Assembly (NCBI RefSeq): GCF_006345805.1
Contig: NW_021832581.1
Span: 1-59,723, forward strand
Direction of reading: 5' to 3'
Source: Octopus sinensis
Taxonomy: Eukaryota
DNA: 59,723 bases
Position 1 is the stretch's first letter. Each line of letters starts with the position of its first letter. Positions 2,843 through 22,100 of this stretch are shown one piece after another. The position numbers are program-made.

Positions 2843-5800
2843 AGGCATTCTACTCTCAGCTAAAAATGAAGGTAGATAACTATCAATATAGCAGAAGATA
2901 TTAAAGCTGTCTATATAACAATGGGGTTGTTTAGGGGGGGGGGATTAGATATACAACAACAGCAACAACAATAAATGAACATTTCAAAGTTTGTCTTTAT
3001 TTTAAATGTGAATTTTTAACAAAGGAGCCAAACCAGTGAAGGGATCACTATGTGGCTGATATACCTGCTAGAATTAGTAGCTAAATTCACACGATATCAC
3101 TGTACAGAAGGGCATATTGGACAATGTGGTTGTGGGTTCTCTTTGGAAATAGGCATGATGGTCCTGACTGGAATGCGTTTGATCATAAGTCTCTGTGTAA
3201 CAACAGTTACACAGAAATTTACTTTGCGTCTAATGACAGACATTCCATCGCAGCAAAACATTCAGCTTCTTCAAGAGCTGCACTTAATGTTGCGTGTGTC
3301 CGTGTTTCTGGGTCGCAATTTTTGAACCATTCGTAAAGAATCTGGTAGCCTTGTTTTACAGTGACATTAGACTCATCATCAATTTTCAGTTTAGTTGTAT
3401 CAACTCCTAAAACAACAACTGCAAAAGACACAACAATAAGAAATAAATGCAACAACATTGACAATAACATAAAACGCTGTGTACTGTAGGTTGTTATGAA
3501 TATAACAAACAAACTTTATCAATAGAGAAGTAAAAAAAGAAATAGCTAAGAAACATGAAAAATATAAGACATTGTTTTCTATTGACAAAAATTACAAAGA
3601 GTTTGAATTAAACGAGATTTTTAAAGAAAATTAATTGAAAATTATACTTGAGAAAATATATGGTAAACGAGGGCAGGAAAACTTTTGTGAAGGCAAAAGT
3701 ATATCAGAACCTCAAGAATTAACATTGACCTCCAACAGTGAAAGCATATGATCCATCCATTTCCTCTGCTCAATATTCTTGAAAGGGCTGTGGGGAAAGA
3801 GTCCTCAGGCACCTCCTCCATAGGGTCCTATCAGAAGCATCCATCATTAGACATTCTGCTTGTATTCTATGATGTGAAGAACTAAGACTATGGATATCAT
3901 CCAACCATTTCTTTCTTGGCCTCCCCCTCGGTATCGTGTTCCATTGGTTTGACTTTGAGAACCTGTCCTGTAATTCATTGCTGCAACACCCTGATCACAT
4001 GTCCGAGGTACCACAGATGTGGAGGAGACGTGGCTCAACCTGGAGAGACTCCCAGATCTCTGAACTGTAAATCCTATTGAGTACCAAAGACCCTTTAGAA
4101 GAACCCCATACATCTGTCATATTCTGTTAGATTTCAGAACTGGTATTCAAAGGGTCATGAAAGTACTGTCCCTCAGTGTCATCTACTACCTTGCAAAGAT
4201 CCCAAGAGGACACTGGAAATCGAATGATCAGTGATTGTCCAACAGTCGATAATTCTAAGTCAAATTCAATCCCATTTTAAACTTCTCCAATGAACTCCAG
4301 GTTCGATCAATTCTACAGAGCCTATTCAGTTATTATTATGTCAGTCTGAATGAGAGATGCCCCCTGCAGTTCGGCTTGACTTGTGAATGTTCATTTTCTG
4401 GTAAATTCCCTTAAAGGAATTCTCTGTTTTCGCCTGAGGAGAATGATAGGATTTCGCTGTGTCACCTTTATTAAATCTCTTTTTATTGAAGCATTTACAG
4501 ACATATGTCATGTGGTAAAGTCATTGCAAAATGGCAAAATAAATTGGAATTATCAGCTTCCAACACAATAACCCAATAAATAATGGCTGCAAGAAGAACC
4601 AAACTCAAAGTTTTCTGTTGAATAAGATTCTTTGTTTTAGATGTGAACTTTGGTACTTGTCCTTCATTACAATAACCTAACAGTGAACCTAAAGAAAATG
4701 TAAAACAAATTCACTCACCTGTTTACCCTTAAACAATATATTTTAGTTCCTCTTCCAAAAGATAATATTAACGCCATTTGTGTTTTCTAGTTTATCCATT
4801 ATTACCAACCATGCTAACCTCAGTGGATATTTTATGAAATATCAGGAATATCGTAAATAAAATTGTCATACAGGTAACCTATCAATTGGAAATGAGGAAT
4901 GTAACTTGTTCTCATTCATTCTGACAAATAAAATAGATCAGGTGAAAGTAAAATATATAGAAATCAAATATACTCACCTATTTGCCACCAATCACGTCCT
5001 AACCTCTTAGCCACTCTCAGAAGATCCCTCTCCTTCAGAACTGGACTCTCTGAAATAAATATTTCCAGCTTTTATAATTGATTGTAAAACTTATTTATCT
5101 CTATAAATATTCTGTAGTTTATTGTTGTGGGACATTGTTATCATCAGTGGTTGGCTGGTGACCACTAGGGTTTTGCTCAGTATTTTTATACTTTCCATTG
5201 TGGGACCAGGTAATAGCTCAATATTTAGGCCCGCAACAAAATAGACTAACTTTCCGAAACCTTGTTTCTCTTTAACAGAGACATCCTACATAATCTAACA
5301 ATGTTGCAATTATTTCATTTAATTATCATTTCATGAGACTGTTTCTTCTCATAGTTCTCTCTCTCCTTTCATATATCTGTACCAAATCTATGACATGTGA
5401 CTGTCCTCTGAACTCTACACGTCACTAACCACCATTCTCCTCATCTTCTGCTAAAGTCCAATATCATCCAATGTGGTCTCCAAAGATCTCGTCACAAATG
5501 CATGACACACCACTTCAAGTAAAATAAACGTAATACCTGTTCTCTTTGCTGTTGGTAATCTTGAATTTTATCATCCCACATCTCAGTTCACCTGGTCATT
5601 ATCTGGTACAGGGAATATTTTAAGACTCCTTAATAAAGGTGAGCAATGATCAGTTCTCCAAAGATGAAACAAAAAGTGATATCAGGTGTCCTAAAACACT
5701 GTACACTTGTACAAAACCCCATTCACTACATACAACTTGACATCTACACATTATTGCAGGGAAGACATCTGAAATGGTACAAAAGGACTGATACTCAAAA

Positions 5801-19100: not shown

Positions 19101-22100
19101 ATAAAATGTAAGGTGAGGGTACACGATGTTCCTATGACAAAATAAGTTTACATTTCAGACATACAAATGTAAGAGAGTTAATGAATTATAGCTTATTAAT
19201 TATCATGATAATTGGGTATATATGTGATACAATGGCACTGTGCTTGACGGTGCAATACTAGATATCAATATAGATTGTATATATCTGAGTAAAGAACATA
19301 TAGCTTCATTACAATTATATATATGAATATGATGGTCTCAGCACAGCTAATATTATGGTAGTTCCATGAGCAAACGAAGAAAGATATAACCAAGTCCACT
19401 GCCAAATACTAATGATTAATTCATTTCCTGGTCAAATAACAATGACTAACTTCATTAAATAATTTGAATGCAACAATCAAGACCAAAGGGTGAAACACTC
19501 AGAAAACTGTGCCTCTTTTAGCATTAATATCATCTAAAATCTAACAAGAGTGAGAAAAAGAATGACTATATGGATGGTAAATGTTGTTCAAACAATTAAT
19601 GTAATAATGTATATTATATATAATTACAAGAAGGATTTGTGTATTCAAGTCAAATTCAATTTCTGATTGTATATTTTGTATAAACACCAATAATTTGTTT
19701 AAATATAAACAGATATTCACGGTTCAATACTAAATTTAACATTTAATAAAATTAAGTTCATGATGAATATTCTTATACAGAGTTAACATTTAATTAGAAT
19801 TTTCTAATTTGCAACTACAAAATGTATTCTAACCAGAGACATTCAGGGTACACAACCCCAGAAAATACAACATATTACGACAGACATCTGGCTACATAAC
19901 AACATCAAGAATAACCTATCAGAAAACTTACGAAAAATCTTAGTAGAAAAACAAACAACTATCTTATTAACCTAGGTTTTACACCTAAAAAATAACATTA
20001 TGTTCCCTCTTCCAGAAGACAATATAACTCTATTGTGGCTTTTAATTTATCCATTTACCAAACATGTTAACCATGACTTTATGAAATTTCATATTTTTAA
20101 TACAATTACTTTAGAGCTAACCTTTCAAATGGAAATTAGAAATGGGATTTGTTCTCCACCATTCTAATACGCAAAATAGCTGAGGTGGATGTACAATCTA
20201 TAGAAATTAATTAAGTTCTCTAATTTTAAACTCATCAACTGTCTCTGCCACAGTCTGCACTCCCTTCTCTTCAAACTTTGGACTCTCTGAAATATGTGAC
20301 TCCAAGTTTTATATTTATTTATAGCACAATCCCTTTATATTTATTAATAATCTATATTTTATTATTGAGAGACATTCATACCGTCAATGGCCAACCGGCG
20401 ATCATAATGCTTTTGGTCAATATTTTTATACTTTCAACAGTGGACCCATGTAATAGCCAATATTTAGCTCCAAAACGAACTCTAGTTGATCTTTGTAAAT
20501 TTCCTCTCTCTGTTAAGATATCCTACATAATCTAACAATGCTGTAATTATATCATTTAATTATCACCTAATAACAGTTTATCTGTAGGCTTTGGTTTCCT
20601 TGCTTATATCTATGCCAAATCTATTGCATTTTCAAAACCCTGATCTTCACTAACAACCTGTTTGATTCCAGTGTCAACAAATTTATTCATCAAAGATATA
20701 ACAACAAACACATGTCACAACCACTTCAAGTAGGTAAAACATACACCTAATCTCTTTGTTAAACATTGTTGCTGATAATCCCTAATTTTAACTTCACAGT
20801 TCACCAGAATGCCATCTTATTCAGGAAATATTTGAAGGTTTCATGATCTGGTTGGAATGTGACACTCAAGTCAGAACCAAAACCTAAATTTGAGAGACGG
20901 ACAAAACAGTGTCTCTGTTAGCCTTGATATCACCCAAAGACCAACACAGCAACATGGAGTTGCGTGTTGAAGTCTCAAACACAGGTGACACATACATTTT
21001 ACTCCTTTAAAATATTCTACTAATTTTAATACTTTACCAAAGATGACACTGATGTCCTTGTAAGTACTGTTGTATTTACTTATCTTCTAATAACTCATAA
21101 TTAATTATAGAGTTGATGGAGATTTATTGATACTTCAGTTACTCACTAATTATCTTGCAGAATCCTCCATTATTTTTATGTTGCAGACTACAACCCTCTT
21201 GAAGTGTGACATGTTTCCTACTTGGATAAGGTCAATGTTTAGTGGATGTAGTGTGAGAGATATACTATTACAGAGAACAGACACTAGGAACACCTTTTAT
21301 CATAAATCTGCCAGATTATGGCAGACCTCTGTCTACATAACAACATGAAGTATATTATTCTACACAATAAGGGCAATGGGACAAGCAGGACAAACAGACA
21401 GATCAGCAAAGATTTTCTTACCAACTCGACCTCTGCTTGTTACAGGTTTTAAACACTTCAGACATTGTTGAAGTGGAACGTTTGAACATCCCTTACATAT
21501 TACAAGGTGTCCACATGGATGGACTTTTGTTGTGGCCGCTTTATTTCTGCACCACAAACATCTGTGGACAAAACAGAAACATCCAATCAATAACATTCAT
21601 TTATAACAAATATTACATTATTTACATGTTCGGAATAGAGAATATTATAAGATACATCAGTAACTACCAAGAGTACAGCAGAAAATCTTCTTTAAACATT
21701 ACATACATACAGATATTTGTGTAGTTAAATGGCATGCTCACACACCACACACATACATACATACACACACATGCATACATACATTGATAAATGTTTGTCT
21801 TGACCCTGACACATCATAGAAATTTGGTTGACACACAGTGAACTACATATATTCCAGAAATATATTTCACTTCTAACATCGAACTCATTTCTTCTGAAGA
21901 AATATATCTACACAGGTTTCTTTATATACACATACTGTATTGTATACATCCCGTCAACACAGATTAGCAGATGAGGTTTCCAGCACTGCAGAGTGGCAGA
22001 AATTACCCGAAACTAGTACTGGTCAGCTAGACACATCCCTAGAAGATGGTAGGGGTTCGCTCCCTGCTGCTCAATTTATCGGATGCAGTTCCGCATTGTT

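What the first reader, a model, noticed from the sequence alone, without database searches (positions are those of the whole stretch)
4978..20286. Expanding array of symmetric mini-exons forming a variable-length linker between a RING and a death domain
Seen: eight paralogous phase 1-1 exon positions (20236, 18468, 16408, 14285, 11845, 9619, 7571, 4978), each in its own ~2-2.6 kb duplicated intron unit with the same acceptor and donor context. All lengths are multiples of 3 (78, 72, 51, 48), so any subset keeps the frame into the death domain. Inference: the locus is an 'exon accordion'. Copy number (unequal crossover) and cassette or mutually exclusive splicing could tune the distance and valency between the E3 module and the death domain. 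None of these exons is visible in the ORF track.
Basis: partly seen in the sequence, partly recalled or inferred. Interest (0 to 1): 0.88.

Follow-up and report, generated by a model that had tools for sequence, protein, structure and literature searches.

The report
Duplicated mini-exon linker in octopus ligase
An octopus gene for an ankyrin-RING-death-domain ubiquitin ligase carries a tandem array of duplicated small exons that lengthen the flexible stretch between its RING and death domains, an ordinary kind of exon duplication in a family nobody seems to have described.

Summary
The repeat array is real. Eight paralogous exon positions sit in about 2 kb duplicated intron units on the minus strand, between a RING exon and a C-terminal death domain.

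- Four young 78-nt phase 1-1 exons are intact.
- The 72-nt exon is intact but encodes the start of the death domain, not linker.
- The other three are decayed: donor AT, donor CT, and a deleted acceptor.

The gene belongs to an Octopus family automatically named "MIB2-like". Annotated proteins of O. sinensis and O. vulgaris carry 0-4 copies of the same 26-aa unit, and isoforms of single genes differ by exactly these units. This supports additive cassette use and copy-number change. These models are predictions, and I saw no transcripts.

All the mini-exons are paralogs of the death domain's first exon. AlphaFold gives the linker low confidence and the death domain high confidence. Within the window the copies are no better conserved than their introns, so a tuned function is unproven.

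This is a new member of a known kind, tandem exon duplication. An upstream exon carries five one-base gaps.

The parts
38576..38755 (-). First coding exon (MSSLSSLQINKPID..., start of the ankyrin region)
   Evidence: tblastn of P0012 (73%) and P0048 (96%)
33923..34081 (-). Ankyrin-repeat exon
   Evidence: tblastn of P0048 at 92% and P0012
28734..28949 (-). Ankyrin-repeat exon
   Evidence: Pfam Ank_4 E 3.9e-11 and Ank E 1.6e-8; tblastn of P0003 at 90%
26966..27136 (-). Exon between the ankyrin and RING exons. It is 171 nt where the closest homolog implies 176, so it reads through only with five one-base gaps.
   Evidence: 52 of the 53 other residues are identical to P0048. All five gaps lie in or beside short runs of one base.
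21422..21561 (-). RING exon (140 nt), enters in phase 2 and leaves in phase 1
   Evidence: Pfam zf-C3HC4_3 at 30.6 bits; splice sites; 100% identical to P0091 and 98% to P0048 and P0050
20236..20286 (-). Old 51-nt copy (SPKFEEKGVQTVAETV) with donor AT, not spliceable in frame by GT-AG rules
18468..18545 (-). Young 78-nt linker exon, (E)APKFEDRCVQTEAICQELGAASQAI
   Evidence: AG and GTGAGT sites, phase 1-1; 100% identical to units in P0038, P0039 and P0041-44
16408..16485 (-). Young 78-nt linker exon, (G)APKCEDRCVQTEATCQELGATSQAI
   Evidence: the same 26-mer occurs in database units
14285..14362 (-). Young 78-nt linker exon, (G)VPKCEDRCVQTEATCQELGAASQAI
11845..11922 (-). Young 78-nt linker exon, (E)APKFEDRCVQTEATCQELGAASQAI
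   Evidence: 100% identical to the unit of P0005 and P0048
9619..9669 (-). Old 51-nt copy (ARPIFEDKEVQTVEGPR) with donor CT. A weak GT three bases upstream would give 48 nt in frame.
   Evidence: 94% identical to the exon used in P0012
7571..7621 (-). Old copy that has lost its polypyrimidine tract and acceptor AG: a dead relic
   Evidence: A likeness of its peptide to a mini-exon of O. bimaculoides P0037 was read by eye and is tentative.
4978..5049 (-). 72-nt exon (SPVLKERDLLRVAKRLGRDWWQI) encoding the N-terminal helix region of the death domain. It is the paralog of all the mini-exons.
   Evidence: lies inside the Pfam Death match of homologs and inside the confident part of the model
3219..3418 (-). 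Last exon: the rest of the death domain plus the stop codon TAA
9670..18545 (-). The four young duplicated units (2060, 2123, 2440 and 2253 nt). Each holds one 78-nt exon plus intron with an AAATCA repeat. A 68-nt minisatellite and a (GAT)n run are each listed in two of the four units.

Best explanation
The window holds a 35.5 kb minus-strand gene of an Octopus family of ankyrin-repeat, RING and death-domain proteins.

An about 2 kb unit, made of the first death-domain exon and its flanking intron, was duplicated in tandem several times. The old copies diverged into short linker exons of 16-17 or 24-26 residues. In this locus three of them have since lost a splice site. One type, the 78-nt, 26-residue 'APKFEDRCVQTEATCQELGAASQAI' exon, was amplified recently to four intact copies.

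Every exon from the RING exon onward leaves in phase 1, and every one after it enters in phase 1. The spliceosome can therefore include any number of them. Each included exon adds 26 residues to a flexible, poorly ordered stretch between the E3 module (RING) and the oligomerising module (death domain).

Copy number changes by unequal crossing-over and gene conversion among the near-identical units.

Shown here: the anatomy, the homology, the domain identities, the variable unit number in annotated relatives, and the mosaic units.

Inferred: that the exons are really included in mRNA of this locus, and that linker length matters, for example by setting how far the RING-bound E2 reaches from a death-domain assembly. 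Selection on the peptide looks weak, so much of the variation may be tolerated rather than tuned.
For: - Unit homology.
- Intact AG/GT sites, open frames and phase 1-1 for the four 78-nt exons and the 72-nt exon.
- Related annotated proteins contain the same unit in series between RING and death domain. By my pattern count, of 74 family proteins 42 have 0 units, 17 have 1, 8 have 2, 3 have 3 and 4 have 4. That is 56 units in 31 proteins and 22 distinct 26-mers.
- Isoforms of single genes differ only by these units:
  - P0008 against P0005, P0006 and P0007
  - P0010 against P0011
  - P0020, P0021 and P0022
  - P0017, P0018 and P0019
  - P0028 against P0029
- Other paralogs amplified the short exon type instead: at least 3 copies in P0091 and at least 5 in P0053.
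- Death domain:
  - Pfam Death E 4.6e-9 for P0038 and 4.8e-8 for P0050.
  - 28 of 43 representative homologs of the last exon match Pfam Death.
  - In the AlphaFold model of P0011, block means of pLDDT for residues 141-220 are 80-94.
  - Foldseek TM (normalised to target) is 0.75 to the RIPK1 death domain and 0.76 to the FADD death domain.
- Linker residues 54-133 of that model have pLDDT below 50.
- The closest pair of young units changes along the unit: U1-U3 and U2-U4 are 94-95% where the other pairs are 86-87%, while elsewhere U1-U4 is 99%. This fits exchange among units.
- RING and death-domain identities are discordant between paralogs.
Against: - No transcript data were available. All isoforms are computed models of other loci or species, and near-identical 78-nt exons can create false skip junctions from short reads.
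- Within the window the four young exons are no better conserved than their flanks. Exons: 8 of 78 sites vary, mean pairwise difference 5.6%. Flanks: 6.7% and 7.9%.
- pN/pS is 0.54 on very few changes.
- Exon identity among the old copies is about the same as intron identity.
- Two database units are frameshifted yet still modelled as coding.
- Three of the eight copies here are decayed.
- The upstream exon 26966-27136 does not read through. This locus may be a pseudogene, or the assembly may be locally faulty.
- Pfam Death does not reach its cut-off for this subtype: 12.7-18.1 bits against 22.6 in P0008, P0019, P0025 and P0037. There was no hit for the last exon alone.
Confidence: 0.6

Rival explanations
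1. Neutral birth and death. The units spread by unequal crossing-over. They are spliced in, or not, only because they carry copied splice sites. Linker length has no tuned role, and copies decay at random.
For: - No extra conservation of exon over intron.
- pN/pS 0.54 on 8 variable sites.
- 3 of 8 copies have lost splice sites.
- Frameshifted units occur in annotated models.
- The linker has low pLDDT and no relatives in the ESM Atlas.
Against: - The same unit type is kept in many paralogs and in two species with few changes; 16 of its 26 positions are the same in at least 20 of the 22 distinct units.
- Arrays arose independently for two exon types.
- Recent spread could explain both points, so this rival is not excluded. 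It differs from the best explanation only in whether length matters.
Confidence: 0.3
2. Mutually exclusive exon cluster of the Dscam type: exactly one of the paralogous exons is chosen for each transcript.
For: - Isoforms X6, X7 and X8 of one O. sinensis gene each hold exactly one, different, unit.
- The exons are tandem paralogs with conserved flanks.
Against: - 15 of 74 family proteins hold 2-4 units in series.
- The unit lies in a low-confidence linker, not inside a folded domain where substitution would be needed.
- No inverted repeats of 25 nt or more in the array that could act as docking and selector pairs (a crude test).
Confidence: 0.05
3. Assembly artefact: the four young units are an over-expansion of one or two real units.
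For: - Parts of the units are 97-99% alike.
- The window has at least one locally suspect stretch, exon 26966-27136.
Against: - The units differ by 1-14% by segment, by length (2060-2440 nt) and by an insertion or replacement in one unit.
- The four exons differ at 8 sites.
- Annotated proteins of other assemblies hold up to four units.
Confidence: 0.05
4. The locus is a dead gene copy, so the array is a fossil here whatever it does in paralogs.
For: - Five one-base gaps and in-frame stops in exon 26966-27136.
- Three decayed mini-exons.
Against: - Apart from the gaps, that exon is 52 of 53 residues identical to P0048. Five deletions with one substitution fits sequencing error in base runs better than decay (the error profile is my inference).
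- All other exons are open with intact sites.
- Short RING-to-death-domain models that start just before the RING exist in relatives, such as P0010 and P0011.
Confidence: 0.15

Closest known systems
Tandem exon duplication as a general class (review PMC9013439, abstract and outline read; search listing)
   Same: Adjacent homologous exons of equal phase, produced with their introns by local duplication, which widen the splicing repertoire.
   Different: Here the copies appear to be used additively in series, encode a poorly ordered linker, and derive from an exon of a neighbouring folded domain.
Titin PEVK exon array (PMC6469411, search listing and start of abstract only; the exon sizes and differential splicing are recalled)
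   Same: Many short, frame-neutral exons, each adding one unit of about 26-28 residues to an unstructured spacer whose length varies by splicing and by exon gain and loss.
   Different: Scale is four exons against more than a hundred. The protein context and the mechanical role of PEVK have no counterpart shown here.
Dscam1 mutually exclusive exon clusters (PMC1397879 and PMC1431710, search listing only)
   Same: Tandem paralogous exons with conserved splice contexts.
   Different: Dscam picks one exon inside an Ig domain. Here 2-4 units occur in series in annotated models.
MIB1/MIB2 E3 ligases (the automatic name of the relatives)
   Same: Ankyrin repeats followed by a C3HC4_3-type RING. PDB MIB1 chain 8v0e matches the ankyrin part of P0005 at E 6.9e-17.
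   Different: The precomputed or scanned Pfam lists show no MIB/HERC2, ZZ or REP domains. MIB proteins have no death domain (recalled).
Mollusc IAPs with RING and death-domain architecture (PMC8917759, passages read)
   Same: A RING of the IAP type and a death-fold domain in one mollusc protein of an expanded family.
   Different: Those are BIR proteins. No BIR here, ankyrin repeats instead, and no mini-exon array is reported in the passages I read.

Membership tests
Death domain (Pfam PF00531, death fold) | Sequence match to the family profile | tested here: inconclusive
   - Last exon alone: no hit at E <= 1.
- Homologs of the same subtype score 12.7-18.1 bits, below the 22.6 cut-off.
- Paralogs P0038 (36.7 bits) and P0050 (33.5 bits) pass.
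- 28 of 43 representative homologs of the last exon match at E <= 0.01.
Death domain (Pfam PF00531, death fold) | Helical-bundle death fold | tested here: met
   Tested on homolog P0011, not on the window's own joined protein. Block means of pLDDT for residues 141-220 are 80-94. Foldseek TM by target is 0.75 to the RIPK1 death domain (6ac5, 92 columns) and 0.76 to the FADD death domain (6aci_H), but E is 0.06-0.16 and no match has E <= 0.001.
RING finger, C3HC4_3 (IAP/MIB type) | Profile match above the cut-off, and RING fold | tested here: met
   Window exon scores 30.6 bits against a cut-off of 27. The model of homolog P0011 matches cIAP2, IDOL and XIAP RINGs with TM by target 0.6-0.77.
Mind bomb (MIB1/MIB2) ligases | N-terminal MIB/HERC2 and ZZ domains and REP repeats before the ankyrin repeats (the feature list is recalled) | tested here: not met
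   Full-length relatives with a start methionine (P0040, P0050, P0004, P0012) list only ankyrin, RING and, in P0050, Death families. The window's first exon already begins the ankyrin region.
Tandem-duplicated cassette exon array | Adjacent homologous exons with equal phase and length divisible by three | tested here: met
Tandem-duplicated cassette exon array | Canonical splice sites at every copy | tested here: not met
   5 of 8 copies have AG and GT sites. 20236 has donor AT, 9619 has donor CT, and 7571 has lost its acceptor.
Tandem-duplicated cassette exon array | Transcripts that include different numbers of copies | not testable with these tools
   Only computed isoform models of relatives were available. 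No reads or cDNA.
Mutually exclusive exon cluster | One and only one copy per transcript | tested here: not met
   15 of 74 family proteins carry 2-4 units in series. No long inverted repeats in the array.

The most novel reading that the evidence does not exclude
The shared 2 kb mini-exon units act as a recombination hinge for the whole family. Because paralogs carry near-identical units between RING and death domain, non-allelic exchange there both resizes the linker and swaps ankyrin-RING 'heads' onto different death-domain 'tails'. With combinatorial splicing, this would give the octopus a fast-evolving set of E3 adaptors, perhaps for innate immunity or cell death.

The lead is the discordance between RING and death-domain identities:
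- P0050 has a RING 98% identical to the window's, but its death-domain exons are only 48% identical.
- P0009, P0012 and P0004 have RINGs only 26-41% identical, but death-domain exons 92-96% identical.

Chimeric gene models could mimic this.
Probability: 0.2. Interest if true: 0.6.

Novelty: new member of a known kind. Interest (0 to 1): 0.36.

Why it matters
If the units are truly spliced in variable numbers, this is a compact, tractable case of a protein spacer resized both by the genome (unequal exchange) and by the spliceosome, in an E3 ligase that also carries an oligomerising death domain.

It also shows an exon of a folded domain being recycled into linker.

It flags a lineage-specific octopus ankyrin-RING-death-domain family that automatic annotation hides under the name 'MIB2-like'.

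For genome annotation, the array is a warning. Near-identical 78-nt exons invite both missed exons and false isoforms.

Tried and rejected
Searches that led nowhere:
- Pfam on single exons gave no Death hit for the last exon, the 72-nt exon or a 78-nt exon.
- A sequence search of the last exon against PDB chains gave only one chance-level hit, E 1.6. The same search with P0005 was swamped by ankyrin proteins.
- An ESM Atlas search with four linker units (P0038, residues 1-104) gave no usable feature hit and only generic helical look-alikes.
- Rfam over the whole window: 0 matches.
- Inverted repeats of 25 nt or more in 9600-20400: none.
- The bacterial promoter and terminator scan is irrelevant to an animal gene and should be disregarded.

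Readings rejected:
- Mutually exclusive splicing was rejected, because annotated models carry units in series.
- Assembly expansion was judged unlikely, because the units differ.
- A test for extra constraint on the exons found none, which weakens any claim of tuned function.

Literature. Six searches found no paper on this octopus family or its mini-exons. Paper supplements were closed and not seen.

Not checked:
Unit counts at orthologous loci were therefore judged from proteins only.

No stretch of the window looked human, and none was treated as human. The joined full-length protein of this locus was never built, searched or folded. Full-length statements rest on database proteins of relatives.

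
Full report
**What is there.** The window is AT-rich animal DNA, about 33-46% G+C, with no N. On the minus strand lies a gene that runs from about 38755 to 3219. Proteins of relatives map onto it exon by exon:
- an ankyrin start exon, 38755-38576
- ankyrin exons 34081-33923 and 28949-28734 (Pfam Ank_4 E 3.9e-11)
- an exon at 27136-26966
- the RING exon 21561-21422 (Pfam zf-C3HC4_3, 30.6 bits against a cut-off of 27)
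- the mini-exons
- a 72-nt exon, 5049-4978
- the last exon, 3418-3219, ending in TAA

All relatives found by three protein searches are from Octopus, mostly O. sinensis and O. vulgaris, with O. bimaculoides models at 63-70% identity. They number 37 of 71, 33 of 6932 and 25 of 28 candidates. They carry automatic names such as 'E3 ubiquitin-protein ligase MIB2-like'. The closest are:
- P0048 (O. vulgaris): 96% identical in the first exon, 92% in the second, 98% in the RING exon and 100% in the 72-nt exon.
- P0091 (O. sinensis): 100% in the RING exon.

No protein matched every exon at 100%. I did not try to find out where the window comes from.

**The observation.** A self-comparison of 1-26000 shows a tandem array.
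- Four young units between about 10.3 and 20.1 kb are 88-93% identical, with periods of 2060-2440 nt.
- Older units around 4.7-5.4, 7.3-8.4, about 9.0-9.2 and 20.0-20.6 kb are 65-74% identical to them.
- One alignment holds all eight exon neighbourhoods.
- The 20-nt acceptor context occurs six times against 0.01 expected, only at claimed positions.

The paralogy is therefore real and far beyond chance. The splice-site table sorts the copies:
- The four 78-nt exons and the 72-nt exon have ...TTTCAG acceptors, GTGAGT donors, open frames and phase 1-1.
- The 20236 copy has ATGAGT in place of the donor, and no in-frame GT.
- The 9619 copy, really 9619-9669, has CTGAGT. Only a weak GTGCTG three bases upstream keeps the frame.
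- The 7571 copy has lost the stretch that held the polypyrimidine tract and the AG.

So five of eight are canonical exons.

**What the exons encode.**
- The 72-nt exon reads SPVLKERDLLRVAKRLGRDWWQI. It is the start of the C-terminal domain, not linker.
- The 78-nt exons read (E/G)APK(F/C)EDRCVQTEA(T/I)CQELGA(A/T)SQAI.
- Unit DNA around the 72-nt exon aligns with the young units over about 700 nt at 67-69% identity, E down to 5e-65, and the exons themselves align in register. All the mini-exons are therefore paralogs of the first exon of the C-terminal domain.
- The short type (ARPIFEDKEVQTVE..) matches the first half of the long type.

**The C-terminal domain is a death domain.**
- The last exon alone misses Pfam and PDB sequences.
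- An exhaustive search with it found 43 representative proteins at E <= 0.001. Of these, 28 match Pfam Death at E <= 0.01, best 1.1e-13.
- Paralogs P0038 and P0050 pass the Pfam cut-off. Relatives of the same subtype as the window fall short of it, at 12.7-18.1 bits, but align to profile positions 3-81.
- An AlphaFold model of P0011 (RING, three units, death domain; 61-sequence alignment) gives:
  - RING: block means of pLDDT 62-76
  - linker residues 54-133: pLDDT below 50
  - residues 141-220: block means of pLDDT 80-94
- Foldseek matches the RING to cIAP2, IDOL and XIAP RINGs. It matches the C-terminal part to RIPK1, FADD, PIDD/RAIDD and Fas/FADD death domains, with TM by target 0.54-0.76. 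E-values are only 0.06-0.3, and no match has E <= 0.001.

**Use of the exons in relatives.** Between RING and death domain, annotated proteins are built from exactly these modules. By my pattern count, 74 of the 98 fetched proteins bear family marks. Of those, 42 have no long unit, 17 have one, 8 have two, 3 have three and 4 have four.

Isoforms of one gene differ only by modules:
- O. sinensis X1 (P0008) has three units. X6, X7 and X8 (P0005, P0006, P0007) have one each, a different one.
- P0010 and P0011 have two and three units.
- P0020, P0021 and P0022 have one long plus one short, three, and four.
- P0017, P0018 and P0019 include or skip the short exon and even the first death-domain exon.

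Other paralogs amplified the short type instead, with at least three copies in P0091 and at least five in P0053. Several models end in ..GEYKIIVPN or ..GEYI. These are exactly the window's read-through into the intron after a 78-nt exon or after the 72-nt exon. That suggests retained introns or early termination.

All of this supports additive cassette use and changing copy number. But the proteins are computed models, and near-identical exons can mislead read mapping.

**Dynamics.** Along the four young units the closest pair changes. In one 250-column segment U1-U3 and U2-U4 are 94-95% against 86-87% for the other pairs. At the exon end U1-U4 is 99%. One unit carries a replaced segment. That mosaic fits unequal exchange or gene conversion.

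Across paralogs, RING and death domain tell different histories:
- P0050 shares the window's RING (98%) but not its death-domain exons (48%).
- P0009, P0012 and P0004 share the death-domain exons (92-96%) but not the RING (26-41%).

Either modules were exchanged with breakpoints near the array, or some models are chimeric. P0001 clearly is.

**Constraint.** Within the window the exons are not better kept than the introns:
- 8 of 78 sites vary, with a mean pairwise difference of 5.6%, against 7.9% upstream and 6.7% downstream.
- pN/pS is 0.54 on a handful of changes.
- Among the old copies, exon identity is about the same as flank identity.
- A short intronic motif, GATTTCTRTA, downstream of the donor is invariant in all eight.

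I therefore treat 'tuning' as unproven.

**A flaw upstream.** Exon 27136-26966 is 171 nt, where P0048 implies 176. A frameshift-aware alignment needs five one-base gaps, each in or beside a short run of one base. Meanwhile 52 of the other 53 residues are identical. I think local assembly error is more likely than decay, but I cannot decide without reads.

**Comparison and verdict.** This is tandem exon duplication, a known kind (PMC9013439, abstract). It is closest in logic to frame-neutral spacer exons such as titin's PEVK array (recalled; PMC6469411 seen as a listing). It is not a Dscam-type exclusive cluster. It is not a Mind bomb ligase in the strict sense, because no MIB/HERC2 or ZZ families are listed for full-length relatives. 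Six literature searches found nothing on this family.

Novelty is modest. The most interesting open point is whether the array serves as a recombination hinge for the family.

The joined spliced protein of this locus was deliberately not built or searched.

Noticed in passing
window 26966-27136 (-): The coding exon before the RING exon reads through only with five one-base gaps (171 nt against 176), all in or beside short runs of one base, yet it is otherwise 52 of 53 residues identical to P0048. Either local assembly error or a very odd pseudogene.
   Followed up: partly
window 22700-24148 (-) and about 39900-40950 (+): Two copies of a reverse-transcriptase ORF (Pfam RVT_1 E 1e-29 for the first). 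One lies in the intron between the exon at 26966-27136 and the RING exon. The other lies upstream of the gene's first exon. Their translations are similar (ISKMFETILKKSM...).
   Followed up: partly
window about 36600-44100: Very long low-complexity tracts with extreme GC and AT skew (GC skew down to -0.88), lying on both sides of the first coding exon at 38576-38755.
   Followed up: no
window 11162-11593, 15720-16161, 17813-17858: TRF lists an AAATCA microsatellite in three young units (11162, 15720, 17813). It lists a 68-nt minisatellite of about 2.8 copies and a (GAT)n run in only two of them (11222 and 15774; 11550 and 16106). Rfam finds no RNA family there.
   Followed up: partly
window, about 25-35 nt downstream of each of the eight donors (for example 18430-18440): The motif GATTTCT(A/G)TA is invariant in all eight units although they are only about 65-75% alike overall. 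It may be a splicing element or may be chance.
   Followed up: no
window 21393-21421 (-): The intron just after the RING donor translates to GKKIFADLSV. tblastn aligns this with the ..ASPKFADKGV mini-exon of P0091 and P0092. It may be a ninth, fully decayed relic.
   Followed up: no
window 18441-18467, 16381-16407, 14258-14284, 11818-11844 and 4966-4977 (-): Read-through past the donors gives GEYKIIVPN-stop after each 78-nt exon and GEYI-stop after the 72-nt exon. These are identical to the C-termini of annotated models P0039, P0041 and P0048, so truncated, death-domain-less products may exist.
   Followed up: partly
database proteins P0050, P0009, P0012, P0004 against window exons: RING and death-domain identities are discordant between paralogs (98% against 48%; 26-41% against 92-96%). 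This points to module exchange, or to chimeric gene models.
   Followed up: partly
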